DNA of 64,000 bases from Flavobacteriales bacterium (GTDB lineage Bacteria; Bacteroidota; Bacteroidia; Flavobacteriales; UBA7430), in contig JAOGVT010000002.1 in NCBI GenBank assembly GCA_028110365.1, positions 19,180 through 83,179 on the forward strand. Direction: 5' to 3'. Under the pieces are notes generated by a model. That model worked only from the letters and a program-made list of their open reading frames with translations, was not told where the DNA came from and did not search any database. Within the stretch, counting starts at the first letter, position 1. Every line of letters begins with the position of its first letter. A program made the position numbers and the translations under genes. Positions 1 through 33,061 of the stretch are shown here, in pieces.

Positions 1-837
1 GCCCTCATTCCCAATATCCACACGATTCGATTTCTCTTCTACCTTTTGTGTTATGAAGTAAGTTCCATTGTAGAGCCCATTGATGTAAACTTCAGCAAAC
101 TCTCCTAGAGGTGTCCAATTTAAGGTGGAGGCATAGCCCATTTCTAAGGCAATGGCGTTGCGAAGCATTGTCTTATCGGAATGCTCAGCCAAGAAGAGCC
201 ACTTTTTATCGTTTGGCATTCCTAAAAACTCAGCTTTATCATCCAATTTCATTTGATAAGGTTTTTTTGGATGTGTTACCCATGTGGAGTTCCCTCTACC
301 TCTAATTTTCATAGAAAGAGAATCAAGACCAGAGAGTAAAGAATCACCCTTTACGCTAAAGCCGCTCTCAACATTAACAGTACCCAATACATAAACATCT
401 GTGGAATTGATTAATTCTTGGTTTTCGGTATTGATGTACACAACAGGTAAATCAGTACTTACGGTACTTATTTGTTCACATACACTCCCATTACATACTT
501 CATTATAAGCACATGAATCGCACGGTAAAGCAACGAAACAAGGTGTTCCTCCGAAATTACTGCAGTCAGTTGGAGTAAACCATTCGTACCATGGAGAGTA
601 GGCCTCGGTATACATACAACCGTCGTAAGGGGCATCATTACAAGAGAAATAAGTACAGCGCGTATTACCCCACTCATCTTCTTCCTGAACAGTTGCCAGT
701 GGATTGTAGTTTATGGCATTCTGATCTAAACAACCCGAAATCATAGTTTCACCTTCATTAACCATCATAGAAGGTAATGCTAAGGTAAAGCCGTTCACTA
801 AAAAAAACAGTATTAAAGTATATTTAAGCTGTATCAT
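1..837 (-). CDS. CotH kinase family protein, secreted (N-terminal 279 codons; the 3' end lies beyond the left window edge)
   Basis: The minus-strand frame is open from the ATG at 837 to position 1 with no stop, which is why it is absent from the ORF track. My translation starts with a signal-like MIQLKYTLILFFLVNGFTLA. A Cys-rich stretch follows (GCLDQNAINYNPLATVQEEDEWGNTRCTYFSC...). Then comes MKIRGRGNSTWVTHPKKPYQMKLDDKAEFLGMPNDKKWLFLAEHSDKTMLRNAIALEMG, which matches the conserved N-terminal block of CotH as I remember it. Confidence 0.65.
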   Translation of the reverse strand, partial: MIQLKYTLILFFLVNGFTLALPSMMVNEGETMISGCLDQNAINYNPLATVQEEDEWGNTRCTYFSCNDAPYDGCMYTEAYSPWYEWFTPTDCSNFGGTPCFVALPCDSCAYNEVCNGSVCEQISTVSTDLPVVYINTENQELINSTDVYVLGTVNVESGFSVKGDSLLSGLDSLSMKIRGRGNSTWVTHPKKPYQMKLDDKAEFLGMPNDKKWLFLAEHSDKTMLRNAIALEMGYASTLNWTPLGEFAEVYINGLYNGTYFITQKVEEKSNRVDIGNEG

Positions 838-950: not shown

Positions 951-3900
951 TTACTGAACTCTTTTTTCTACGGTTCCATCGTTATAAACATGAAAAAGAA
1001 CTTTACCCTTACACGATTCACCATCAATTACTACCTGACCAAGTACATTGATCACTTTAACCAAAACTCTTGCGCCAGAAATTAATGGAGCGCTTCCAGC
1101 ATTTGTTACAATACTTGAGGCTACATTAATTTGATTGGTTGCGTAAAATGAAGATCCTTGCATCCAATCAGTTACTTCAACTATACTTTCTTGGTGGTTA
1201 GATACTATTTTAAATGAACTTACTTCGGTTACATCTAGCCCATCTTTTTTGGCTGTTAATGCATCGTCTCCCCAAACCGTTAATACGGTTACAGGACTTG
1301 TGTATTTTACAGACCCTACCCTAGTACCAAAAGAGTCGTAAGCAGTTATTTCTGCACCTTCTTTAGGGAGTGTATCCCAGCAAGCATCAGGCATTACAAT
1401 TACCATATTGTTATCTGTAATTGAGGTTTTTTTGAAGTAAGATGAGCTGTTTTTGGTAATGTCTACAGAAGATATTCGGTACGAGTCTTCGTTAGAAAGG
1501 TAATTTAAAACAGCATCATTATTGATTTTTAATTGATACCCTTGTCCCGGAACGAAATCTCCGATGCCATTAAAGTTAAACTCTGGTAAGTAGGTATTAC
1601 CGGCGTAATCTTTTGCAATTATTAAATTACCAGAAGCACTTATGTCTGCTAGAACGGCAGAAGCGTCTGCAGGTTCAAGCCTGAGGTATCCAATCAGATT
1701 CCAACCAGCATCTAGGGCAATTGGATTTAATTCAGGAGTCACATAAACGCCTTCTAAAGTAATATTAAAGGCGTTGTACGTCTTGATATAATAACCTTGC
1801 TCTGACTGTAAATCTCCAATATTATTAAAATTAAATTCTGGCAGATAAGTATCACCTGTATTATTTTTTACAATAATTACATCGGCACTAAATGGATTAA
1901 AAATATCCATGAGATCGGTTGGATTGGATTGGATATAACTTGAAAATAGAGACCAACCAGAAGGCAATTCAATTAATTGATTGGTTATTTGCTGAGGGTA
2001 CTCACAAGAGTTGTCATCTTGAGTAGCGGTAGGATTGAAGTTTAGAGCAGTTGTGTCTGTACAACCCAAAATTTCTACGATTGTAAAATCTATACAAACT
2101 TCTAATGTGGCTTGCAAACCAGAACTTAAAGTACCAGAAATGATTTCATTATTTTGTGCATCACTTATAGTGACAACTGCACCATTCCAACCATCGCCAT
2201 ACGAATCAATCATTGTAAATGTATGACAGCCAGAAGCCAAACATATTTGAGAGAAACCAACGGTTCCAGAATATTCATTAACCGACCAAGTGACTTCACT
2301 TGGGAATTCTCCCTGTGAAAGTTGAACAAACACAATATTAGATGAAGAACAATTTATAGCCTCTTGACATGTTCCGTTGTCTGAAACCGCGTCTGGATTA
2401 AAGTTAATAGCTAAAGAATCGGTACATCCAGACACTGGATAATTACAGCTATTATTTGATGCATTTGCATTGCTATCGTAATTGAGTGCTAAAGAGTCGG
2501 TGCAGCCGAATATAGGACCACATTCTCCCGAGTAATTAAGCGAATAAAAGCCGGTCTGATTTCCATCGCCAGAAATAACTGTGTTTTGATTTGCATCTAT
2601 AAGATCCCATGTGATTTCGTTAGCCCATTGGCCTCCAACTGTAAACACATTACAACCGTCGTTTAAACAAAAAGAAGCACTCGCTTGCGAAAGAGAACCT
2701 AAAAATAAATACGACAATACATCACCATTACTTTGAGAGATACTGAGCTCATTTGTATGTTCGCCGTAAGGCCAAGAATCAGTCATCATAAGAACATAAG
2801 GGGTCCCAAACTCACATTCAATTGGAACGATGCAAGAGCCATCATTTGCATTTGCATTTGCCTCATAATTAAAGGCCAATGGATTCGTACAGCCAGCGAT
2901 ACAAGAATCTAAAGTATTTAAAGCAAAATTATAAATGCCCGCATTATTCTCATTTATAGATTCATAAAACAAAACTTCATGAGCTGTATTGGTTATCTGT
3001 ACATCAACATCAAACCAGTTATCGGTTTGAATTCCATTTTCATCAAATGTATTGATGTTAAAAGCATGACAGCCGTCTTGTAAACAAACCGGAGAGGCTC
3101 CGGCCTCTCCGTAAAACCCACTCATAGACCAGGCTACATCGTCAATATAATCTCCTGTAATTTCGACTTGCAAGCGAGTCAATCCTTCACATTCTACTTT
3201 ACTACAAGAACCGTCGTCAGTATTCGCTTCTGGAGAAAAATTAAGCACAAGAGAGTCGGTACAACCTAAAATAGGGTAAATGCAACTTCCGTCTTCAGCT
3301 GTAGCAAGAATAATGTAATTAAGAGCTAATGAATCGGTACATCCAGAAGTAAAAGAGCAAGAGTCTTGATTTAATGAAAAAGTCAAAGAACCTACATTTG
3401 TATTCTCCAAAGTACCTAAGCCGAGTAACTGACCACCACTGGCAAGGATTGTAACTTCTGCCCCGCCCCAACCAAGTTGAGAAGAATCAAGCCAAGAAGG
3501 AGCTTGAGATGTATCGCTATACATATTGTAAATATAGCATCCATCGGCCAAACAAAATTGACCTTGTTGAAGATCAAATGGGTAAGAATCTCCTTCAATT
3601 CCATTCATTTCCCATGAAATTAGGTAATTGTAATCTCCACCAGTAAATTGCATAAATGCAGTGGTAGAGTCTCCACAATCTAGTATTGGCAAGTGGCAAA
3701 AGCCGTCGTCTTGATTGGCTAATACATTGTAATTAAATGCAATAGGATTTGTACAACCGTACACAAAATCGCAATCAGAAGCAACATCAACTTCAATTGT
3801 TCCATTAAAGCCATCGTCTAAGGTAGCGTAGAGCAATTGTTCGCCATCCACAGTCGTTATAGTTGCAGTTACGTCTCCTAACCAACCAGGTCCGGTAAAA

Positions 3901-5513
3901 GTGGACATCGTAAAGGTGTGACAGCCTGGCTGAACACAAATTAACTTTTCTTCTCCTGCATTTCCTTCAAACCCTTCAAACTCCCATGAAATAGACTGTG
4001 TAAGATATTCCGTGTAAGCCGCATTTACGTTTACTGATAACAGCGTGGCTCCAATACAATCGGTGTCATAAAAACAAGACCCGTCGCTAAGAACAGCTAA
4101 ACTATCAAAATTATATGCAGAAACATCTGTACAACCCTGAATTGGATAAATACAAGAGGCGTCGTAAGAGTTTACTAGCGCATCGTAATTAAGAGCCAAT
4201 GTATCGTAGCAGCCATAAATTGGAGCACATTCGGAATTAACATTAATAAGTAAGCTACCACCTTGGCCTTGATCAAGATACATTTGAGCTAAAATTGAAT
4301 CTTCTTGACTTATCGTGTAATTGTAACCCAGCCAAGGACCAGCTCCGTCTTTAATGATATAAAAAGTGTGACATCCCTCTTCTAAACAAACGTCATAGGA
4401 ACCTCTAATCCCTTCGTAATCTCCTAATTGCCATTGCGCAGGGGAAGCAGAAACAACATCTTCTACTTCTACGTGAATCTTTTCACCAGACAAACATTCA
4501 CCGTAACAATCGAATCCAAATAAAGGGGCAGGTTCGCAAGCACCACATTCATTCGTAGTGTAACAAAATCCATGATCAAATAATGCTTCAGCGTCAAAAT
4601 TACATGCTGTTTCGTCCATACATCCATAGTCAGATGTTACTTCTGCATTGTGAAAAATCCATTCTAAATAAAAAGATACCGTAGTATATCCCATCGGATA
4701 CTGAGGCATACCAGGGGTGTATCCGCCAGAGGTAACACCAACCAAAAGCCAATCTGTACTGTCGGCATTAGGCACGACTAATGGCCCTCCTGAATCTCCA
4801 GAAGCTGCAGATAAACCCCCATTTTCTAAATCTCCCGCATAAATAGTGGTACCATCGTATAACTCAAGCTCTAAGCCCAAAAGACAACCGTATTCTCCAG
4901 CAAACCCATTTGGATCTGTTGCAGCTCCACAAGCTACTTCATTAGAAACGATTGGCACTTCAATCATCTGTAATTGAGTTGCTTCTATGGTATCATTTAA
5001 ATAAGCAGAAGTCGAAACTCCCCAACCAGTGGATGTAGCTAGTACTCCAGGATCTTGAAGTCCGTTTAAAACATCTGAAGCTGAGATTAGACTAATAGGA
5101 GCTATATTTTCAGAAAAGTTAAACGATCCTTCAATTTGAATTAAAGCAATGTCGTTGTGTAGCCACTGATCGTCGTAATCTGGATGCGAAATAATTTGAA
5201 CCACATCATAAGATTCACCTGAATAAGACCAATTATCTGAGGATCCAGCATTTATGGTATAGGTACTAGCATCACCTGCTCCATCAACACAATGTGCGGC
5301 AGTTAAAACCCATGAATCTCCAATGATTGAACCGCCACACATGCTCCCAAAATCTGGCCCCTCGTAGGCAACAGCTACTTGCCATGGGTAGGAACTTATC
5401 TCTACATCTTCCCCACCCACAATTCTACTTTGTGCAACAGAATAAAAAGTTGATAGAAAAATAAAATAGCTAAATGATTGAATTACTAAATTAATCGGGA
5501 GGAGATTTTTCAT
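951..5513 (-). CDS. Giant secreted S1A (trypsin-fold) serine protease, paralogue B, with a Cys-rich module array and a T9SS-CTD-like C-terminus
   Basis: 1520-aa ORF with a signal peptide (...FYSVAQSR). The S1A motifs are IVGG (aa 31), WVLTAAHC (His74), HNDIAL (Asp121) and GDSGGP (Ser241, nt 4791-4793). It has 10 copies of the motif GC[TY][DN]xxAxN[YF]...D[GN]SC. The tail is conserved with the upstream paralogue and ends ...VLVKVINVLGQVV...VLFHVYNDGTVEKRVQ. Confidence 0.9.
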   Translation of the reverse strand: MKNLLPINLVIQSFSYFIFLSTFYSVAQSRIVGGEDVEISSYPWQVAVAYEGPDFGSMCGGSIIGDSWVLTAAHCVDGAGDASTYTINAGSSDNWSYSGESYDVVQIISHPDYDDQWLHNDIALIQIEGSFNFSENIAPISLISASDVLNGLQDPGVLATSTGWGVSTSAYLNDTIEATQLQMIEVPIVSNEVACGAATDPNGFAGEYGCLLGLELELYDGTTIYAGDLENGGLSAASGDSGGPLVVPNADSTDWLLVGVTSGGYTPGMPQYPMGYTTVSFYLEWIFHNAEVTSDYGCMDETACNFDAEALFDHGFCYTTNECGACEPAPLFGFDCYGECLSGEKIHVEVEDVVSASPAQWQLGDYEGIRGSYDVCLEEGCHTFYIIKDGAGPWLGYNYTISQEDSILAQMYLDQGQGGSLLINVNSECAPIYGCYDTLALNYDALVNSYDASCIYPIQGCTDVSAYNFDSLAVLSDGSCFYDTDCIGATLLSVNVNAAYTEYLTQSISWEFEGFEGNAGEEKLICVQPGCHTFTMSTFTGPGWLGDVTATITTVDGEQLLYATLDDGFNGTIEVDVASDCDFVYGCTNPIAFNYNVLANQDDGFCHLPILDCGDSTTAFMQFTGGDYNYLISWEMNGIEGDSYPFDLQQGQFCLADGCYIYNMYSDTSQAPSWLDSSQLGWGGAEVTILASGGQLLGLGTLENTNVGSLTFSLNQDSCSFTSGCTDSLALNYIILATAEDGSCIYPILGCTDSLVLNFSPEANTDDGSCSKVECEGLTRLQVEITGDYIDDVAWSMSGFYGEAGASPVCLQDGCHAFNINTFDENGIQTDNWFDVDVQITNTAHEVLFYESINENNAGIYNFALNTLDSCIAGCTNPLAFNYEANANANDGSCIVPIECEFGTPYVLMMTDSWPYGEHTNELSISQSNGDVLSYLFLGSLSQASASFCLNDGCNVFTVGGQWANEITWDLIDANQNTVISGDGNQTGFYSLNYSGECGPIFGCTDSLALNYDSNANASNNSCNYPVSGCTDSLAINFNPDAVSDNGTCQEAINCSSSNIVFVQLSQGEFPSEVTWSVNEYSGTVGFSQICLASGCHTFTMIDSYGDGWNGAVVTISDAQNNEIISGTLSSGLQATLEVCIDFTIVEILGCTDTTALNFNPTATQDDNSCEYPQQITNQLIELPSGWSLFSSYIQSNPTDLMDIFNPFSADVIIVKNNTGDTYLPEFNFNNIGDLQSEQGYYIKTYNAFNITLEGVYVTPELNPIALDAGWNLIGYLRLEPADASAVLADISASGNLIIAKDYAGNTYLPEFNFNGIGDFVPGQGYQLKINNDAVLNYLSNEDSYRISSVDITKNSSSYFKKTSITDNNMVIVMPDACWDTLPKEGAEITAYDSFGTRVGSVKYTSPVTVLTVWGDDALTAKKDGLDVTEVSSFKIVSNHQESIVEVTDWMQGSSFYATNQINVASSIVTNAGSAPLISGARVLVKVINVLGQVVIDGESCKGKVLFHVYNDGTVEKRVQ
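1995..4628 (-). repeat. In-frame module array of protease B: 10 two-Cys ~24-aa motifs alternating with degenerate W-rich ~45-aa units
   Basis: I counted the motifs in the translation, from YGCMDETACNFDAEALFDHGFC to LGCTDTTALNFNPTATQDDNSCEYP. Only the last intervening unit keeps the canonical DSYGDGWNG. Confidence 0.7.
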
Positions 5514-5534
5514 GTACTAATTTTAAATTTGTAG

Positions 5535-5542
5535 CAAATATA
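5535..5542 (-). promoter_or_regulatory. Bacteroidota-type -7 promoter box (TATATTTG on the minus strand) for protease B
   Basis: Plus-strand caaatata is TATATTTG in reverse complement and fits the TAnnTTTG consensus. It lies 22 nt upstream of the ATG at 5513 and downstream of the inter-paralogue hairpin. Confidence 0.4.
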
Positions 5543-5559
5543 CAAAACATAAATACCAT

Positions 5560-5594
5560 AAAAAAAGAGGCTCCATCGCTGAAAGCCTCTTTTT
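5560..5594 (-). terminator. Rho-independent terminator between the two giant protease genes
   Basis: The stem agaggct(5566-5572)/agcctct(5584-5590) has an 11-nt loop. It is flanked by an A-run on the left and a T-run on the right, so it can act in both directions. It sits 22 nt after the stop codon of protease A. Confidence 0.55.
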
Positions 5595-5615
5595 ATAATA
5601 CTATTATATGGTAAC

Positions 5616-8600
5616 TTATTTAACCATTTTTTCTACGGTTCCGTCGTTGTAAACATTAAAGAGAACTTCTCCAGTAAAAGAGTCATCAACAACTACTTCC
5701 TGACCAAGTACATTGATTACTTTAACCAAAACTCTTCCGCTTGAAATTAAAGCAACGCTTGAGGTATTTGTTACAATACTTGAAGCTACATTAATTTCAT
5801 TGGTTGTATAAGTTGAAGAACCTTCAACCCATTTGGTAACTTCAAATGTATTTGTTTGATTGTTAGACCATAGTTTAAATGAACTTACTTCAGTTGCATT
5901 TAGTCCATCTTTAGAGCTTGTTAAAGCATCGTCTCCCCAAACTGTTAATACGGTTACAGGACTGGTGTATTTAGCAGAACCTACAAGGGTACCATAAGCA
6001 TCGAAAGCAGCTATTTCAGCGCCATCTTTAGGAAGTACATCCCAACTTGCGTCGTCAATTACAACAGTCATATTGTTATCCGTACGCAGGGCTCTTTCAA
6101 AGTGAGATGAATAATTATTAGTTACACCTATTGAAGAAACTCGGTAAGACTCTTCGTTAGAAAGATAATTTAAAACATCATCGTTAGTTACTTTTAATTG
6201 ATATCCTTGCCCAGAAACAAAGTCTCCAATTCCGTTAAAGTTAAACTCAGGTAAATAAGCGTTACCCGCAAAGTCTTTTGCAATTACTAAATTACCCGAA
6301 GAATTGATGTCAGAGAGAACAGCAGAAGCATCTGCAGGCTCAAGTCTAATGTATCCAATCATATTCCAACCAGCAGTTAAGATTGTAGGGTTTTCCTCTG
6401 GAGCAAGATATTCCCCTTCTGCTGTAATGGTAATTTCATTACGCAATTTGATTTGGTATCCCTGACCTAATTCAACATCTCCAATTCCATTAAAACCATA
6501 TTCGGGAAGGTAAGCAGCGCCAGCATTGTTTTTACAAATTATAATCTGGTCAAAAATAGAGCTTAATAAAGTTACCAAGTCCATACTTTCAAAAGTCAAA
6601 TAGGTAGAGAATATGGACCATCCAAATGGCATATCCATAGTTTGATCGGAAACAGAAGAAATCGAAGTTAAAGTGGAAAGTGCAGAGATCCCGTTGGTAA
6701 TATAGTTCCCTTGGTTAGACATCATCGCCTCATATTCTGCATTGGCCATATAAGCTAATCCTTCTGATGTATCCCAAACCATCCAAACAAATGCTTCGTT
6801 TGATGAAAAGCCATCTATTTCATCTGTAGTTGTATCATCACCTTGAGCGGCAATAAGATTTGTGGAACCAGTCCAAGTTGCCATACCACCACACTGTAAA
6901 TCTCCATTTTCATCAGAATAGAACACACCAAGTACATCTCCGATCTCAATTTCTACATCCCCTAAATCAATCTGAGCAGCACCATCAATAACTAATGTGT
7001 GGTTAGATCCAGTTACCATTACTTCCCAAGGAATATCAACTCCAGGATTATCGCCATCACATGATGTTGTAAAATCAAATGTAGCTTCTTGTCCTTGTTC
7101 CATTCCTCCTGAGGCTAGTTCACATGAAAGGTCATCAGATAAAATTGAGAATGTTCCTCCATTCCATCCGTCACCATAGGAATCCGATAAAATAATTGAA
7201 TAAGAAGTATTTGATTCTAAACAAAGTTCAACGTCAACAACAGAATTGTCAGAGTACTGACCATCTGTGTACAACATCAAGCCACTTTCATCGGTAACTG
7301 ACCATGAGTGCTCGTCACCAAAAGAAGCATTGTTTACGACAAGTAAAGCAGGGTATCCCTCACAATTCACAGGGTACTCACAAGAACCATCATCTTGTGT
7401 AGCTGCTAAATTGTAATTCAAGGCTGAAATATCTGTACATCCAAGTATTGGATCAACAATAATTTCACATTCACCAGCGTATACTGATTCAACTCCAGCA
7501 CAACTTGCATGGCAAGAACTTGAGTAAGTTATCCCATCAAATCCACAAACAGGATCGTAAATTTCAGGGCATACACAGCCGTATTCACATGAGCCATCGT
7601 CTATAGTAGCCGTATTGTCAAAGTTTAAAGCTGAAGGGTCTGTACAGCCATAAACGTATCCACATTCGGCATTTAAAGAGAATAACATGTCCCCAGAATA
7701 CCCAGCTTGTAATGTACCCGTTAATAATTCCTCTCCTGTAGATGTCGTAATCGTTACTATTGAACCATTCCAACCGTCTCCATAAGAATCTATCATAATA
7801 AATGTATGACATCCATCCTCTAAGCAATATTGTGTTGCCCCAACTTCACCTGGGAAATCGTTTAACTGCCAGGAAACTTCTTGACTATAAAATCCAGCCG
7901 TAACATCAATTACAACAAGTGTTAATCCTTCACAATCAATAGGATATTCACATGAAGCATCATCTTGAACTGCATCTGGGTTATAATTTAAAGCAAGAGA
8001 ATCTGTACAACCAACAACAGGATAAGTACATGAATTATCGTCTGCTGTAGCTGCTGGGTTAAAGTTTAAGGCTAAAGAATCGGTACAACCGTATATCAAA
8101 CCACATTCACCTTCAAAATTTAAGGCTAGTGAAGATTCGTATGGAGCATTTCCAGACAACACAACGGCTCCGTCTTGATTAACAAGATCCCAAGAAACTT
8201 CACTTTGCCATGAACCACCATCTACAGTAATTACATAACACCCATCGTTTAAACAGAAGCTAGCAACTCCTTCGCTTTCCGAACCTAATAAGGTAGCAGA
8301 AGCGATCTCTTGTCCGTTTGAAGATGCAGTAAATGCATTTCCATTCCAACCATCACCATAAGAATCGTACATCATTAAAGTTAAAGAGTTTGCAGTGTCA
8401 CAATCTTGAGGGTAAACACAAGAACCATCGTCTCCAACAGCAAGCTCGTTGTAATTGAAGGCTAATGAATCCATACAACCTGAAACTGGATAAGTACAAG
8501 AACCATCATTTGAGGTTGCTTCGACATCAAAGTTTAAGGCTAATGTATCGGTACACCCTAAAACAGGCCCACATTGTTCATCTGTATTTAAGCCAAAGCT

Positions 8601-10403
8601 AAGCGTTCCTTCAGAAACGTAACCTTCGAGCGTTCCAGACAGTAAAACGTCTCCATAAGAATCAGTAATTGTAACTACAGCAGAATTCCATCCATCTCCG
8701 TAAGAATCATACATAGTAAAAGTTTGACAACCGTCTTCTAAACAGGCTTGAGTAGATTCAGCACTTCCAGAAAAACCACCGATACTCCATGTAATTTCTG
8801 AATCCCATGAACCACCACCTACTTGAATTGAAACAGAAGTTAAACCAGAACAGTCAATCGGATACTCACAAGAGCCATCGTCTTCTACAGCTGCAATATT
8901 ATAATTTAAAGCTAGCGTATCCATACATCCAGCAACTGGGTATAGGCAGGAGTAGTTGTCAGCCGTAGCTTCAGCATTAAAGTTCAAGGCAGTCGAATCT
9001 GTACATCCAAATACAGGGCCACAACCTTCGCCTCCAAAAGCACCTTCAAAAGGAGCACCACCAGAAATCAACACAACACCATTCACGTCAGTAATCTCCC
9101 ATGACACTTCTAGTGGCCATGAGCCAGCATCACAAGTTACATCGACACAACCTGCAGAGGAATCGTAACAAACGACTCCAGAACCAGAACTTCCTGATGC
9201 AATAGTTAATGAAACTCCATTTACAATTAAAGCAGCTCCATTCCAACCATCACCGTAAGAATCAGACATTGTTACGATAAGCGTTTCACCAGTCGTACAG
9301 TTTCCAGCACAATCGTAACCTGGAGCTGGGCCATCACCGCCACACTCACCACATTCATCAAATGCAGCACAAGTACCATCATCAAAAATCATTGATGAAT
9401 CAAAATTACACGCATTTTCATCAGTACAACCACTACACGAACTATTGTCTCCTCCACACTCACCACAATCGTCAAGTTCAGCACATGCACCATTATCGTA
9501 AATCGCTTCCGAATCGTAATTACAAGCAGTAATATCCATACATCCGTATTCACTATTCACATCAGCATTGTCATTAATCCAATCCAAAACATGAGAAACT
9601 TTAGACCATACACCAGGGTAAAGTACGTCTGCACAACCATAACCCCAACTAGTAGCACCAATTAGTAACCATCTAGAATTATCAGAACTTCGAACTACAA
9701 GAGGACCACCAGAATCACCCTGACAAGCATCTTCTCCACCATTTATAAGGTCACCCGCACATATCATTGAGGCATCAAGAGAAGTGCAAGGGTATTGTCC
9801 TGAATTACCATTCTCGTCATTTGCAGAACCACAAGCAACATCATTCTCTACAATAGGAGCTTCTACCATCTGTAAAACAGAAGCTAAACCACCACCAGAA
9901 GAGGTTGTACCCCAGCCAGTAATAACGGACATAACTCCACCGTCTTGAGCACCGGCAGCAATTTCATTTTCATCTATTAGATCTATTTTCTGAATAAATG
10001 CACTATACTCAAACTCACCATTGATTTCTACCAAAGCAAAGTCGTATGAATTTCCAGAATAATCTGGATGTACTATAATTTGATTTACAGAATAAGACTC
10101 TCCACCTGATGCAAATGATGCTGTTGCACCACAACGAATATACAAACCACTAGGGCTGTCTCCGTTTACACAGTGAGCTGCGGTTAAAACCCAAGAATCC
10201 CCAATAATAGAACCTCCACAAAACCCGCTTCCATTAGGACTAGAAGTTAAGGCTACTTGCCATGGATAATCTTTGATTTCAACATCTACACCTCCCACAA
10301 CTTTTTGCTGAGCAGAGACATTAAAAGATAAAATAAGAGTGAGCACAAAAGTTAAATTCCGGATGATTTGGAAACAATTAATTGGGGGAGTAAATATTGT
10401 CAT
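5616..10403 (-). CDS. Giant secreted S1A (trypsin-type) serine protease, paralogue A, with a Cys-rich module array, an embedded Kazal-type domain and a T9SS-CTD-like C-terminus
   Basis: 1595-aa ORF with a signal peptide (...SFNVSAQQK). The S1A motifs are VVGG (aa 35), WVLTAAHC (His77), DFALVEI (Asp121) and DACQGDSGGP (Ser231, nt 9711-9713; Asp at the position-189 equivalent). It has 10 two-Cys motifs and 5 canonical DSYGDGWN[GS] units. A Kazal-like segment spans aa 943-979. The C-terminus reads ...VLVKVINVLGQEVVV...VLFNVYNDGTVEKMVK. Confidence 0.9.
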   Translation of the reverse strand: MTIFTPPINCFQIIRNLTFVLTLILSFNVSAQQKVVGGVDVEIKDYPWQVALTSSPNGSGFCGGSIIGDSWVLTAAHCVNGDSPSGLYIRCGATASFASGGESYSVNQIIVHPDYSGNSYDFALVEINGEFEYSAFIQKIDLIDENEIAAGAQDGGVMSVITGWGTTSSGGGLASVLQMVEAPIVENDVACGSANDENGNSGQYPCTSLDASMICAGDLINGGEDACQGDSGGPLVVRSSDNSRWLLIGATSWGYGCADVLYPGVWSKVSHVLDWINDNADVNSEYGCMDITACNYDSEAIYDNGACAELDDCGECGGDNSSCSGCTDENACNFDSSMIFDDGTCAAFDECGECGGDGPAPGYDCAGNCTTGETLIVTMSDSYGDGWNGAALIVNGVSLTIASGSSGSGVVCYDSSAGCVDVTCDAGSWPLEVSWEITDVNGVVLISGGAPFEGAFGGEGCGPVFGCTDSTALNFNAEATADNYSCLYPVAGCMDTLALNYNIAAVEDDGSCEYPIDCSGLTSVSIQVGGGSWDSEITWSIGGFSGSAESTQACLEDGCQTFTMYDSYGDGWNSAVVTITDSYGDVLLSGTLEGYVSEGTLSFGLNTDEQCGPVLGCTDTLALNFDVEATSNDGSCTYPVSGCMDSLAFNYNELAVGDDGSCVYPQDCDTANSLTLMMYDSYGDGWNGNAFTASSNGQEIASATLLGSESEGVASFCLNDGCYVITVDGGSWQSEVSWDLVNQDGAVVLSGNAPYESSLALNFEGECGLIYGCTDSLALNFNPAATADDNSCTYPVVGCTDSLALNYNPDAVQDDASCEYPIDCEGLTLVVIDVTAGFYSQEVSWQLNDFPGEVGATQYCLEDGCHTFIMIDSYGDGWNGSIVTITTSTGEELLTGTLQAGYSGDMLFSLNAECGYVYGCTDPSALNFDNTATIDDGSCEYGCVCPEIYDPVCGFDGITYSSSCHASCAGVESVYAGECEIIVDPILGCTDISALNYNLAATQDDGSCEYPVNCEGYPALLVVNNASFGDEHSWSVTDESGLMLYTDGQYSDNSVVDVELCLESNTSYSIILSDSYGDGWNGGTFSILSDDLSCELASGGMEQGQEATFDFTTSCDGDNPGVDIPWEVMVTGSNHTLVIDGAAQIDLGDVEIEIGDVLGVFYSDENGDLQCGGMATWTGSTNLIAAQGDDTTTDEIDGFSSNEAFVWMVWDTSEGLAYMANAEYEAMMSNQGNYITNGISALSTLTSISSVSDQTMDMPFGWSIFSTYLTFESMDLVTLLSSIFDQIIICKNNAGAAYLPEYGFNGIGDVELGQGYQIKLRNEITITAEGEYLAPEENPTILTAGWNMIGYIRLEPADASAVLSDINSSGNLVIAKDFAGNAYLPEFNFNGIGDFVSGQGYQLKVTNDDVLNYLSNEESYRVSSIGVTNNYSSHFERALRTDNNMTVVIDDASWDVLPKDGAEIAAFDAYGTLVGSAKYTSPVTVLTVWGDDALTSSKDGLNATEVSSFKLWSNNQTNTFEVTKWVEGSSTYTTNEINVASSIVTNTSSVALISSGRVLVKVINVLGQEVVVDDSFTGEVLFNVYNDGTVEKMVK
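7059..9548 (-). repeat. In-frame module array of protease A: 10 two-Cys ~24-aa motifs (mostly in doublets) separating five blocks that each pair a DSYGDGWNG-type unit with an SW-x-SEVSW-type unit
   Basis: Read from the translation. Example motifs are FGCTDSTALNFNAEATADNYSCLYP and AGCMDTLALNYNIAAVEDDGSCEYP. Example units are TMYDSYGDGWNSAVVTITDSYGDVLLSGTL and TVDGGSWQSEVSWDLVNQDGAVVLSGNA. Confidence 0.75.
7467..7577 (-). other. Kazal-type (Kazal_2-like) serine protease inhibitor domain embedded in protease A
   Basis: aa 943-979 read CVCPEIYDPVCGFDGITYSSSCHASCAGVESVYAGEC. This has six Cys and the Y-x-P-V-C-G-x-D-G-x-T-Y core typical of Kazal domains. Confidence 0.75.
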
Positions 10404-31783: not shown

Positions 31784-33061
31784 ATGAAAAATCTAAGCAC
31801 AATAATCCTACTTCTCGCCCCTCTACTTTTGGGTGCTCAATCTTGTGACTTACCCCAGTATTATAGCGGGTTGAATACGGGTTCAAACATGTCAATACTT
31901 CTTCATCAAGACTTTATTGCGGGTTTAGATCTTAACGCAAACGCACCCTATATAGTTGCGCTTTCAGAAAGTGGAGTTGTAGTTGGTTCTAAAAGTTTGG
32001 TGGACGAGAATGGGGCTGTTGTCTTTCAAGAAGCTATTGCGGTATGGGGAGATGATACCTCTACACAAGATGTGGTTGATGGAGCCCTATCAGGAGAAAC
32101 AATTGTACTAAAAGTAATAGACGGAGCTGAATTGTTCACCATAGATACCGATCAAATGGAAATTAGCTTTGCAGTTAACGGGTTAATTGTTGTATTAACT
32201 GGAACCATGAATTATGAGTGTACTGGAGTCGTATTGGGTTGTACTGAGTCGATTGCTTGCAACTTTAATTTAGACGCTACAGAAAATGACGGCTCGTGTG
32301 AATATGCAGTTGAATTCTATAACTGCCAAGGAATTTGCAATACAGATACGGATGAAGATGGCGTGTGTGACGAACTAGAAATTGCTGGATGTGTTGAGCC
32401 TATGGCGTGTAACTACAACGCGTTTGCTACCGATACAGTTGAAAACTGTGTGTATCCAGAACAATATCGAAACTGTGAGGGTGCGTGTGTAAGCGATCAA
32501 GATGGAGACGATATATGCGATCAAGAAGAAGTGGAAGGATGTACCAATTATTTTGCTTGTAACTACATAGCCGAGGCTACAAACGATGATGGTTCGTGTA
32601 TCGTAATTAACGCTACTATACAATACGATGCGCAAAATGGACTGCTAAGCTTAGACACAAATATAGACAGCCTTGACATTACCTGGCTTTATTACGATGC
32701 AGTGATCCCTTTTGAGCATAGCGACTCTATTTATGTATTAGAAGATGGCGTTTATGGAGTGTTGGTTTTTGACCCTGAAAATGATTGTGGTACTTCAGAT
32801 ACAATTCATATTAATGTGGTTGACTTGAATCAAATTAGCCAACCTAAAATACGTATTTACCCAAATCCTGCAATTTCTATTTTAAACATTGAATTAAATA
32901 AAGAAAGTGAGCTCGCGATATTTAATTCTAATGGAGCAGAAATGTATCGTACAAAAACACGAGAAACAGCTGTTAACGTAGCTTATTACCCATCGGGAAT
33001 CTACTTTATTAAACTAGTACAAAACAACAATCGAATTGTTTATCCGTGGGTAAAAGAATAA
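31784..33061 (+). CDS. Secreted T9SS cargo protein sharing modules with the giant proteases (VWGDD domain, 3 two-Cys motifs, 2 acidic Cys loops)
   Basis: 425 aa with a signal peptide (LLLGA|QS). The N-domain reads SNMSILL...VVVGSKS...IAVWGDDTSTQDVVDG. The two-Cys motifs are LGCTESIACNFNLDATENDGSCEY, AGCVEPMACNYNAFATDTVENCVYP and EGCTNYFACNYIAEATNDDGSCIV. The C-terminus has IYPNPAISILNI...GIYFIKL. Confidence 0.8.
   Translation: MKNLSTIILLLAPLLLGAQSCDLPQYYSGLNTGSNMSILLHQDFIAGLDLNANAPYIVALSESGVVVGSKSLVDENGAVVFQEAIAVWGDDTSTQDVVDGALSGETIVLKVIDGAELFTIDTDQMEISFAVNGLIVVLTGTMNYECTGVVLGCTESIACNFNLDATENDGSCEYAVEFYNCQGICNTDTDEDGVCDELEIAGCVEPMACNYNAFATDTVENCVYPEQYRNCEGACVSDQDGDDICDQEEVEGCTNYFACNYIAEATNDDGSCIVINATIQYDAQNGLLSLDTNIDSLDITWLYYDAVIPFEHSDSIYVLEDGVYGVLVFDPENDCGTSDTIHINVVDLNQISQPKIRIYPNPAISILNIELNKESELAIFNSNGAEMYRTKTRETAVNVAYYPSGIYFIKLVQNNNRIVYPWVKE

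What the first reader, a model, noticed from the sequence alone, without database searches (positions are those of the whole stretch)
1995..9548. A ~24-aa two-cysteine motif present in 24 copies across four secreted proteins of this window
The pattern is G-C-[TMY]-[DEN]-x2-A-x-N-[YF]-x5-7-[DN]-[DN]-[GNA]-[ST]-C-x-[YV]-P, for example VGCTDSLALNYNPDAVQDDASCEYP. I count 10 copies in protease A, 10 in protease B, 3 in the T9SS protein at 31784..33061 and 1 in the CotH protein (nt about 649..735). In the proteases the motifs mostly occur as back-to-back doublets that act as spacers between larger units. I cannot name this motif from memory. Sharing it among a kinase, two proteases and a protein next to the VTC operon suggests a common function. 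Candidates are a disulfide-stapled linker, or a module that binds a ligand or anchors to the surface.
Basis: seen in the sequence. Interest (0 to 1): 0.6.

Follow-up and report, generated by a model that had tools for sequence, protein, structure and literature searches.

The report
Widespread unnamed two-cysteine linker bead
The 24 repeats are real copies of a very common but unnamed 24-residue, two-cysteine mini-module that joins the domains of secreted proteins in aquatic bacteria, archaea, algae and viruses; its only solved example is the small "EGF-like" hinge of the human immune pore-former MPEG1/perforin-2, so it is a generic spacer and not evidence that these four proteins share a function.

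Summary
There are 10 + 10 + 3 clear copies, each scoring 34-49 bits against their own profile, plus one divergent copy in CotH. Nothing else in the window matches.

The motif is G-C-T-D-x-x-A-x-N-[YF]-[DN]-x-x-A-x-x-D-D-G-S-C-x-Y-P, with a fixed C-x18-C spacing and a 26-residue tandem period.

It is not specific to this locus. A profile of the copies finds 30,171 protein clusters (3,803 at E<=1e-30), with up to 125 matched stretches per protein. These come from Flavobacteriales, Patescibacteria, Verrucomicrobia, marine group II archaea, a haptophyte, cyanophages and crAss-like phages.

Pfam, NCBIfam and PHROGs have no model for it.

The only PDB match is the segment between the MACPF and P2/MABP domains of MPEG1/perforin-2 (E 2.5e-7). 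Published work calls that segment a truncated EGF-like folded linker or hinge. An AlphaFold model of a window doublet (pLDDT 93) superposes on it at 0.7-0.8 A over 24 residues.

Three lines of evidence point to a disulfide-stapled, copy-number-variable spacer bead: cysteine parity, diverse partner domains, and 1-4 copies per junction among orthologous proteases. A specific ligand-binding module fits these less well.

It is useful for annotation and makes a neat link to MPEG1, but it is biologically ordinary.

The parts
951..5513 (-). Protease A: signal peptide, trypsin domain (aa 31-286), then 10 motif copies alternating with six ~100-aa beta-sandwich units, then a 347-aa C-terminal region
   Evidence: ORF; Pfam Trypsin E 4e-44; architecture; NCBI name 'serine protease [Flavobacteriales bacterium]'
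5616..10403 (-). Protease B: signal peptide, trypsin domain (aa 35-276), 10 motif copies, five units, an embedded Kazal domain (aa 943-987), then a 584-aa C-terminal region
31784..33061 (+). T9SS cargo protein with 3 motif copies of the 3-Cys (Cys at position 8) type, separated by 26-aa spacers that contain TSP3-like acidic loops; Por_Secre_tail at aa 358-418
1..837 (-). N-terminal part of a CotH-family protein (runs off the window); signal-like N-terminus, then one divergent motif copy
646..735 (-). Divergent copy in CotH: GCLDQNAINYNPLATVQEEDEWGNTRCTYF (loop 6 residues longer)
   Evidence: HMM 17.7 bits on the first half only
4554..4625 (-). Protease A copy 1 (aa 297-320), 3-Cys variant, followed by a Cys-rich extension
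4065..4214 (-). Protease A doublet (aa 434-457 and 460-483)
3687..3758 (-). Protease A single copy (aa 586-609)
3195..3344 (-). Protease A doublet (aa 724-747 and 750-773)
2823..2894 (-). Protease A single copy (aa 874-897)
2358..2507 (-). Protease A doublet (aa 1003-1026 and 1029-1052)
1995..2066 (-). Protease A last copy (aa 1150-1173)
9474..9545 (-). Protease B copy 1 (aa 287-310), 3-Cys variant followed by DDCGECGGDNSSC
9360..9431 (-). Protease B copy 2 (aa 325-348), 3-Cys variant followed by DECGECGGD...
8859..9008 (-). Protease B doublet (aa 466-489 and 492-515)
   Evidence: modelled
8409..8558 (-). Protease B doublet (aa 616-639 and 642-665)
   Evidence: modelled
7941..8090 (-). Protease B doublet (aa 772-795 and 798-821); this is the doublet modelled at pLDDT 93
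7578..7649 (-). Protease B single copy (aa 919-942), immediately before the Kazal domain
7371..7442 (-). Protease B single copy (aa 988-1011), immediately after the Kazal domain
32237..32308 (+). T9SS protein copy 1 (aa 152-175)
32387..32458 (+). T9SS protein copy 2 (aa 202-225)
32537..32608 (+). T9SS protein copy 3 (aa 252-275)

Best explanation
Each copy is an autonomous 24-residue extracellular mini-domain, a 'bead'. It is closed by one disulfide between its two invariant cysteines (positions 2 and 21) and held in shape by a conserved framework: G1, T3, D4, A7, N9, Y/F10, A14, D17-D18-G19-S20 and Y23. Its job is architectural. Singly, or in tandem with a 26-residue period, it forms a compact, probably protease-resistant spacer or hinge that separates and articulates the globular domains of secreted proteins. 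In this window those domains are the trypsin domain, the ~100-aa beta-sandwich units, the Kazal domain, the CotH domain and the T9SS cargo. It recognises no specific ligand, and its presence in four proteins of this window reflects only that all four are exported.

Shown: the copies, the family's breadth, the cysteine parity, the confident fold model, the match to the MPEG1 linker, and the copy-number variation.

Inferred: that the disulfide actually forms, that the bead is rigid with flexible joints, and that it lacks a ligand.
For: 1. Family size and tandem habit. The profile finds 30,171 clusters at E<=1e-3, with up to 125 matched stretches per protein. In the top 150 hits the start-to-start spacing peaks at 24-28 aa. 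Tandem run lengths are 995 singles, 323 doublets and 139 triplets, up to 57 in a row.

2. Unrelated partners. In 39 family members Pfam finds Por_Secre_tail (15 of 39), fn3, LTD, PKD, Kazal, LysM, peptidase M43, SdrD_B and others, 42 families in total. Viral members include a PA14 protein, an Rhs-like protein, a MACPF protein and a crAss muzzle protein. Cyanophage virion proteins use it between an N-terminal domain and Ig-like repeats.

3. Disulfide. Family-wide, copies without an extra Cys are followed by 0, 2 or 4 cysteines before the next copy. Copies with a Cys at position 8 are followed by 1, 3 or 5 cysteines, and by a CxxC in 448 of 729 cases against 14 of 929 (Fisher p 6e-185). In the window, 17 of 17 two-Cys copies are followed by an even number and 5 of 6 three-Cys copies by an odd number.

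4. Fold. The AlphaFold2 model of the window doublet has pLDDT 93.2. Its only Foldseek PDB matches are MPEG1 chains: 24 columns, rmsd 0.7-0.8 A, 50% identity, but with non-significant E-values of 3.1-6.3 and probabilities of 0.30-0.54 for so short a match. A profile built only from copies in other proteins hits human MPEG1 at E 2.5e-7 and mouse MPEG1 at 6.9e-6, and no other PDB family.

5. Role in MPEG1. [quoted passage not shown] A review calls it 'a small folded linker region' (PMC7593815). It becomes unresolved in the pore state (PMC9713709).

6. Rigid bead, variable joint. In viral models a single motif superposes at 0.3-1.0 A, but doublets mostly at 2.8-7.5 A.

7. Copy number per junction varies among orthologues that keep the same unit order. 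Protease A is 1-2-1-2-1-2-1, against 1-2-1-2-1-4-1 and 1-2-1-2-1-2-2. Protease B is 1-1-2-2-2-1-1, against 1-3-3-3-3-1-2 and 1-2-2-2-2-3-2.

8. No conserved surface. Between orthologues, framework positions are 79-85% identical. The ten variable positions are 55-65% identical, about the background rate of the neighbouring units.
Against: Five Asp/Asn positions (4, 9, 11, 17, 18) are conserved, which is more than a passive spacer obviously needs. They could form a metal or ligand site.

No biochemical data exist for any bacterial copy.

I could not inspect model or PDB coordinates, so the disulfide and the absence of a bound ion are inferred, not seen.

The Foldseek E-values for the MPEG1 match are not significant on their own (3.1-6.3) because the match is so short. 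The link rests on the combination of sequence profile, rmsd and identity.

No T9SS C-terminal domain was detected in the two proteases, so the picture of a surface-anchored stalk applies with certainty only to the T9SS protein.
Confidence: 0.68

Rival explanations
1. Calcium-stabilised bead. The conserved Asp/Asn residues (D4, N9, D/N11, D17, D18) chelate Ca2+, as in LDL-receptor class A, cbEGF or TSP3 repeats. The spacer would then be rigid only at the Ca2+ levels of sea or lake water. This refines the spacer model and does not replace it.
For: Acidic and amide positions are strongly conserved family-wide: D4 78%, N9 98%, D/N11 86%, D17 71%, D18 82%. The motif co-occurs with TSP3-like/Binary_toxB Ca-binding loops in the T9SS protein spacers and in other family members. 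The habitat is Ca-rich water.
Against: The 2.4 A MPEG1 paper does not mention calcium at all. The same residues can be explained as turn and capping residues of a core-less mini-fold. There is no match to any Ca-binding Pfam model within the motif itself.
Confidence: 0.3
2. Adhesive or ligand-binding repeat. The copies bind a polysaccharide, mineral or cell-surface component, and tandem arrays give avidity. The four window proteins would then be targeted to a common substrate.
For: The motif is present in phage virion and tail-fibre-region proteins and in many T9SS cargo proteins, both of which are classes rich in binding modules. Surface Asp/Asn and Tyr residues are conserved.
Against: The positions that vary are the non-framework ones, and they drift at background rate between orthologues. 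Copy number per junction is free to vary from 1 to 4. In MPEG1 the segment is an interdomain hinge, and membrane binding there is assigned to the P2/MABP hairpin. In every case examined the motif lies between other domains, which fits a connector better than a terminal recognition module.
Confidence: 0.12
3. Glycosylation carrier. In Bacteroidota the beads mainly present O-glycosylation sites (D-[ST]-[AILVMT] at motif positions 4-6), producing a mucin-like, protease-shielded linker.
For: 12 of 23 window copies carry the sequon, against 11-14% family-wide. That this pattern is the Bacteroidota sequon is from my own knowledge; I did not check it here.
Against: Most family members lack the sequon, including the non-Bacteroidota ones and MPEG1. 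At most it is a lineage-specific add-on. The enrichment could simply reflect paralogy among the window copies.
Confidence: 0.12
4. The shared motif marks a functional system that links CotH kinase, the two proteases and the VTC-adjacent protein.
For: All four genes lie within one 33-kb stretch.
Against: The motif is found in more than 30,000 clusters with unrelated partners and in all domains of life plus viruses. Several separate loci per related genome carry it (three contigs each of CBCYMK01 and CAWVTK01). The simplest common denominator is export.
Confidence: 0.03

Closest known systems
The 'truncated EGF-like' folded linker between the MACPF and P2/MABP domains of MPEG1/perforin-2 (PDB 6U23, 6U2J, 6SB3, 6SB1, 8A1D)
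   Same: Same sequence signature: human [24 protein letters not shown] and mouse [21 protein letters not shown]. Profile E-values are 2.5e-7 and 6.9e-6. Same conformation: rmsd 0.7-0.8 A over 24 residues and 50% identity to the AlphaFold model of the window doublet. Same position in the protein, between two globular extracellular domains, and it is described as a hinge.
   Different: It is a single copy in a metazoan membrane-attack protein, whereas the window has tandem or multiple copies in bacterial secreted enzymes. The first framework Ala is Ser in MPEG1. The MPEG1 papers and review that I read do not link this segment to a wider repeat family.
EGF-like domains (Pfam EGF and relatives)
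   Same: Both are small disulfide-bonded extracellular modules used as spacers between domains. The 3-Cys variant plus its CxxC...C extension has six cysteines in about 40 residues, which is the EGF count.
   Different: The common form has only two cysteines and 24 residues. No EGF-family Pfam model matches, even at E<=10. The 'EGF-like' label in MPEG1 is a postulate of the authors.
Ig-like spacer arrays (PKD, Big, fn3) and TSP3-type repeats in T9SS cargo and adhesins
   Same: Same architectural role: repeated, copy-number-variable modules separating functional domains of secreted proteins. They co-occur with the motif in the same proteins.
   Different: Ig-like spacers are 80-100-residue beta-sandwiches and TSP3 repeats are Ca-binding loops. 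This motif is a 24-residue single-disulfide knot with almost no regular secondary structure.
Pfam PF25721 (Phage T4 Y03C protein family) and PHROG 2192
   Same: One family member (P0251) passes the Pfam threshold across a motif doublet, at 35.5 bits. PHROG 2192 gives a marginal hit on the same stretch.
   Different: The window proteins and other arrays do not match. The likely T4 protein, gp46.2 (87 aa), scores 0.8 bits with the family profile. I regard the hit as incidental.

Membership tests
Two-cysteine 'GCTD...NY...DDGSC' bead family (unnamed; defined here by profile) | 24-residue unit with invariant G1, C2, N9 and C21 and a fixed C-x18-C spacing | tested here: met
   23 of 23 regular window copies. 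The same invariants hold in 1,658 copies from 148 other proteins. The CotH copy has a 6-residue loop insertion.
Two-cysteine 'GCTD...NY...DDGSC' bead family (unnamed; defined here by profile) | Intramotif disulfide between C2 and C21 | tested here: inconclusive
   Cysteine parity strongly implies it. Coordinates of the model and of PDB 6U23 could not be inspected.
Two-cysteine 'GCTD...NY...DDGSC' bead family (unnamed; defined here by profile) | Occurs singly or in tandem with a period of about 26 residues between other domains of exported proteins | tested here: met
   Window architecture; family spacing and run lengths; signal peptides and Por_Secre_tail in family members.
MPEG1/perforin-2 MACPF-P2 linker module | Sequence and conformation of the solved segment (chain residues 330-353 of 6U23) | tested here: met
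   hmmsearch E 2.5e-7 with a profile that excludes the window copies. Foldseek rmsd 0.7-0.8 A, 50% identity, and these are the only PDB hits, though the Foldseek E-values themselves (3.1-6.3) are not significant for so short a match.
MPEG1/perforin-2 MACPF-P2 linker module | Context: follows a MACPF domain and precedes a P2/MABP beta-prism | tested here: not met
   The window proteins have trypsin, Kazal, CotH and T9SS domains, and no MACPF. A Terrestrivirus MACPF protein does carry the motif.
EGF-like domain | Six cysteines forming three disulfides in about 30-40 residues; match to EGF profile models | tested here: not met
   There are two cysteines in 17 of 23 window copies. No EGF-family Pfam hit at E<=10.
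Pfam PF25721 T4_Y03C | Score above the Pfam gathering threshold (27 bits) | tested here: not met
   No hit for any window protein or isolated doublet at E<=1 to 10. Only P0251 passes.
Calcium-binding repeat (TSP3 / cbEGF / LDLa type) | Bound Ca2+ coordinated by conserved Asp/Asn | not testable with these tools
   The acidic positions are conserved, but there is no coordinate access. Calcium is not mentioned in the MPEG1 structure paper.

The most novel reading that the evidence does not exclude
The motif is an unrecognised, cross-kingdom, horizontally mobile extracellular mini-domain, and the hinge that lets perforin-2 rotate its MACPF domain by 180 degrees is a lone metazoan copy of it. On top of its spacer role the bead would have a specific property, such as Ca2+-dependent stiffening or weak glycan or particle binding, that explains why aquatic microbes and their viruses use it so heavily. 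Tandem arrays would then act as tunable, environment-responsive stalks.
Probability: 0.15. Interest if true: 0.6.

Novelty: new member of a known kind. Interest (0 to 1): 0.35.

Why it matters
There are three practical reasons.

1. Annotation. A repeat present in at least 30,000 protein clusters, and up to 125 times in one protein, has no Pfam, NCBIfam or PHROG model. Large parts of many giant "hypothetical" proteins of aquatic Bacteroidota, Patescibacteria, marine group II archaea, algae and phages are therefore unannotated. A single HMM would fix that.

2. MPEG1. The so-called EGF-like hinge of MPEG1/perforin-2 now has thousands of relatives. That gives an alignment for judging which hinge residues matter, and a hint about where the module came from.

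3. This window. It removes a false lead, because the shared motif does not tie CotH, the proteases and the VTC neighbour into one system.

It does not open a new biological question on its own.

Tried and rejected
Taken literally it finds only 8 copies, so I replaced it with a profile.
- **Recent DNA duplication.** Rejected: mean nucleotide identity is 56% and synonymous codons are scrambled.
- **Curated libraries.** Pfam, NCBIfam and PHROGs scans of the whole proteins, isolated doublets and tandem arrays found no model for the motif.
- **Pfam T4_Y03C lead.** I followed it into the T4 genome. No small ORF between 1 and 45 kb carries the motif. gp46.2, the likely Y03C, scores 0.8 bits. I judged the hit incidental, but I did not confirm that Y03C is gp46.2.
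- **Literature searches.** Searching for literal motif strings (DDGSC, ALNYN, GCTDP and others) and for PF25721/Y03C gave nothing relevant.
- **The search for homologous proteins.** It returned only proteins about as long as the query. Many looked like frame-shifted fragments of long arrays. They served as an alignment for structure prediction but not for a census of partner domains.
- **T9SS C-terminal domain in the proteases.** Not detected.
- **Origin of the GC-rich top hits.** It could not be established, because they are unnamed metagenome proteins.
- **A wasted call.** One call failed because I sent a protein query to a DNA-only mode.
Full report

Yes. The window encodes two paralogous trypsin-like proteases on the minus strand: A at 951..5513 (1520 aa) and B at 5616..10403 (1595 aa), which share 650 identical residues. 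It also encodes a T9SS cargo protein at 31784..33061 (+) and the N-terminus of a CotH-family protein that runs off the left edge.

A relaxed pattern finds 10, 10 and 3 copies of a 24-residue unit. The CotH protein has one divergent copy at 646..735 whose second loop is six residues longer. All 23 regular copies have exactly the same length and C-x18-C spacing. G1, C2, N9 and C21 are invariant, and A7 and A14 nearly so.

A profile HMM built from them scores each copy at 34-49 bits and the CotH copy at 17.7 bits. Nothing else in the six-frame translation of the 64 kb scores above 7 bits.

Twelve of the 20 protease copies form six back-to-back doublets with a 2-residue linker (26-aa period), lying between ~100-residue units.

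At the DNA level the copies are only 56% identical on average (maximum 75%), with synonymous codons scrambled. They are therefore old copies kept similar by selection on the protein, not recent repeats.

**2. What is it?**

No curated library names it. Pfam-A, NCBIfam and PHROGs give no model covering the motif. This holds for the whole proteins, for isolated doublets and for pure tandem arrays, even at E<=10. NCBI's own names for these proteins are 'serine protease' and 'T9SS type A sorting domain-containing protein' from a 'Flavobacteriales bacterium' metagenome-assembled genome (MAG).

Yet the motif is extremely common. The 23-copy profile, searched against 1.84 billion cluster representatives, finds 30,171 proteins at E<=1e-3, 13,155 at 1e-10 and 3,803 at 1e-30, with up to 125 matched stretches in one 6,618-aa protein.

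In the top 150 hits the start-to-start distance between successive copies peaks at 24-28 residues, with a mode of 26. Tandem run lengths range from 995 singles, 323 doublets and 139 triplets up to 57 in a row. The family-wide consensus from 1,658 ungapped copies is G-C-T-D-[PS]-x-A-[CL]-N-Y-[DN]-[PSA]-x-A-[TN]-x-D-D-G-S-C-x-Y-[P], with the same framework as in the window.

**3. Who has it?**

- Prokaryotic genomes: mostly Flavobacteriales (Cryomorphaceae, Crocinitomicaceae, Weeksellaceae). Also Bacteroidales, Patescibacteria (Saccharibacteria, Buchananbacteria, Parcubacteria), Verrucomicrobia, Sphingomonadales, and two MAGs titled 'Methanobacteriota archaeon' that I take to be marine group II. 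Some MAGs come from lakes as well as the sea. Some of these assignments may reflect mis-binning.
- Eukaryotes: one hit comes from the haptophyte Pleurochrysis carterae. Many top hits have the amino-acid composition of GC-rich genomes, but they are unnamed metagenome proteins and I could not place them.
- Viruses: T4-like cyanophages (S-CAM3, S-CAM4, ACG-2014j, S-RIM44, S-H9-2) carry one or two copies in virion structural proteins encoded next to tail-collar and short-tail-fibre genes. There the copies sit between an N-terminal domain and Ig-like repeats. IMG/VR holds at least 220 matching stretches for two narrow patterns alone. BFVD models with the motif include proteins of the crAss-like virus NIOZ-UU157, a PA14 protein, an Rhs-like protein and a Terrestrivirus MACPF protein.

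**4. Partner domains**

In 39 multi-copy family members Pfam finds 42 different families. Por_Secre_tail occurs in 15. The rest include fn3, LTD, PKD, Big_6, EF-hand, Kazal, SdrD_B, peptidase M43, LysM, He_PIG and beta-propeller repeats. UniProt names of the viral members all derive from other domains. This is the profile of a promiscuous connector.

**5. A solved structure exists**

The profile's only real PDB hit is MPEG1/perforin-2: human [22 protein letters not shown] at chain residues 332-353 of 6U23, and mouse [21 protein letters not shown] in 6SB3 and at residues 4-24 of the P2 crystal construct 6SB1. A second profile, made from 100 copies taken only from other proteins, improves this to E 2.5e-7 (human) and 6.9e-6 (mouse). 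It still finds no other PDB family.

AlphaFold2 on a window doublet (protease B aa 769-824, with 126 aligned sequences) gives pLDDT 93.2 and an irregular mini-fold with only short beta-bridges. Foldseek against the PDB returns only MPEG1 chains: 24 aligned columns, rmsd 0.7-0.8 A, 50% identity. That E-value is not significant by itself (3.1-6.3) because the match is so short. The case rests on sequence and structure together.

In the MPEG1 literature this segment is described in three ways:
[quoted passage not shown] - a region that becomes unresolved in the pore state (PMC9713709).

None of the passages I read connects it to a wider repeat family.

**6. How it most likely works**

*(a) Disulfide.* Family-wide, copies with only the two framework cysteines are followed by 0, 2 or 4 cysteines before the next copy. 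In 503 cases the number is zero, so C2 and C21 have no partner other than each other. Copies with an extra Cys at position 8 (44% of copies) are followed by 1, 3 or 5 cysteines, and by a CxxC within 16 residues in 448 of 729 cases against 14 of 929 (Fisher p 6e-185). In the window, 17 of 17 two-Cys copies are followed by an even number of cysteines and 5 of 6 three-Cys copies by an odd number. So C2-C21 staples each bead, and C8, when present, ties the bead to a downstream Cys-rich extension. This is inference from parity, since I could not open coordinates.

*(b) Independent bead, variable joint.* The motif keeps the same secondary-structure pattern alone and in a doublet-unit-doublet model of protease B aa 463-668 (pLDDT 82). 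In viral models single motifs superpose at 0.3-1.0 A, while doublets mostly do so at 2.8-7.5 A.

*(c) Spacer behaviour in evolution.* Orthologous proteases from related Flavobacteriales keep the order of the large units but change the number of beads at a given junction:
- Protease A has 1-2-1-2-1-2-1, against 1-2-1-2-1-4-1 (L040, 61% identity) and 1-2-1-2-1-2-2 (L036, 67%).
- Protease B has 1-1-2-2-2-1-1, against 1-3-3-3-3-1-2 (L009) and 1-2-2-2-2-3-2 (L003).

*(d) No conserved surface.* Between protease A and its orthologues, framework positions are 79-85% identical. The ten variable positions are 55-65% identical, which is the background rate of the neighbouring units.

Together with the hinge role in MPEG1, this supports a disulfide-stapled structural spacer or hinge (confidence about 0.68).

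The main open refinement is whether the five conserved Asp/Asn positions bind Ca2+ (about 0.3; it is compatible with the spacer role). Specific ligand binding (about 0.12) and a role mainly as an O-glycosylation carrier (about 0.12) are less likely. A functional link among the four window proteins is very unlikely (about 0.03).

**7. Comparison with known families**

The motif is a sequence and structure relative of the MPEG1 linker. It does not share the MACPF/P2 context.

It is not an EGF domain by any testable criterion: two cysteines against six, and no EGF model hit. The 3-Cys variant plus its extension does reach six cysteines, which may be why the MPEG1 authors saw a 'truncated' EGF.

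The Pfam T4_Y03C hit on one family member does not extend to the window proteins. It is probably incidental, because T4 gp46.2, the likely Y03C, scores 0.8 bits with the family profile.

Functionally the motif does the job that PKD, Big, fn3 or TSP3 arrays do in other secreted proteins, with a much smaller unit.

**8. Verdict**

The inference of a common function is not supported.

The motif is a new, unnamed member of a familiar kind: a small disulfide-bonded extracellular connector module. It is very widespread, and its one solved example is hidden under the label 'EGF-like' in perforin-2. It is worth a Pfam entry and a note to the MPEG1 field, but it is not a surprising piece of biology. 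Interest 0.35.

Noticed in passing
window 8559..8858 (-) (protease B aa 516-615), and the other inter-motif units of both proteases, e.g. 7650..7940 and 2067..2357: The ~100-aa units between the beads carry DSYGDGWNG and GGSWxSE(V/I)SW signatures and four cysteines. They occur in two circularly permuted orders: protease B aa 666-771 has the GDGW half first. No Pfam model matches. AlphaFold gives an eight-strand beta-sandwich (pLDDT 82) with no significant PDB neighbour. This may be a second unannotated family.
   Followed up: partly
window 7443..7577 (-) (protease B aa 943-987): A Kazal-type serine-protease inhibitor domain is embedded inside a trypsin-like protease, flanked by single beads (Pfam Kazal_1 E 2.7e-6). 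It could be a built-in inhibitor or a decoy.
   Followed up: no
window 32309..32386 and 32459..32536 (+) (T9SS protein spacers): The 26-aa spacers between the three beads contain DTDEDGVCD and DQDGDDICD loops. These hit the Binary_toxB and bacterial TSP3 calcium-binding models (E 7e-4), so beads and Ca-binding loops alternate here.
   Followed up: partly
motif positions 4-6 of the window copies (for example 8070..8078 -): 12 of 23 window copies read D-[ST]-[AILVMT], against 11-14% family-wide. From memory this is the Bacteroidota general O-glycosylation sequon, so the linkers may be glycosylated in this lineage.
   Followed up: partly
window 7353..7427 (-) (protease B aa 993-1017); family member in alignment A3: The Pfam PsaN model (photosystem I subunit N), positions 72-96, weakly matches the second half of the bead (E 0.18 here, 2.6e-11 in another multi-copy protein). 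This may be a distant or a chance resemblance to the Cys-containing lumenal region of PsaN.
   Followed up: no
window 951..1991 and 5616..7370 (-) (C-terminal regions of both proteases): The long C-terminal regions are homologous between the two proteases and contain repeated AGN(T/A)YLPEFNFNGIGD segments. Their last ~40 residues look T9SS-tail-like by eye, but neither Pfam nor NCBIfam detects a T9SS sorting domain. How these proteases are exported or anchored is open.
   Followed up: partly
proteins P0123, P0124, P0127, P0132, P0143, P0149: Several giant bead-array proteins do not end in a T9SS tail. They end in a dockerin/EF-hand-like C-terminus, D(L/I)N-x-DG-x-(V/I)-x-x-x-DLL-x-(F/L)L-x-x-(F/Y)G-x-x-C, which may be an alternative anchoring or sorting signal.
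   Followed up: no
L040, L036, L009, L003: Orthologous proteases in related Flavobacteriales MAGs expand single junctions to 3 or 4 beads while keeping unit order. This is a clean natural experiment on linker length.
   Followed up: yes
I did not check their families.
   Followed up: no
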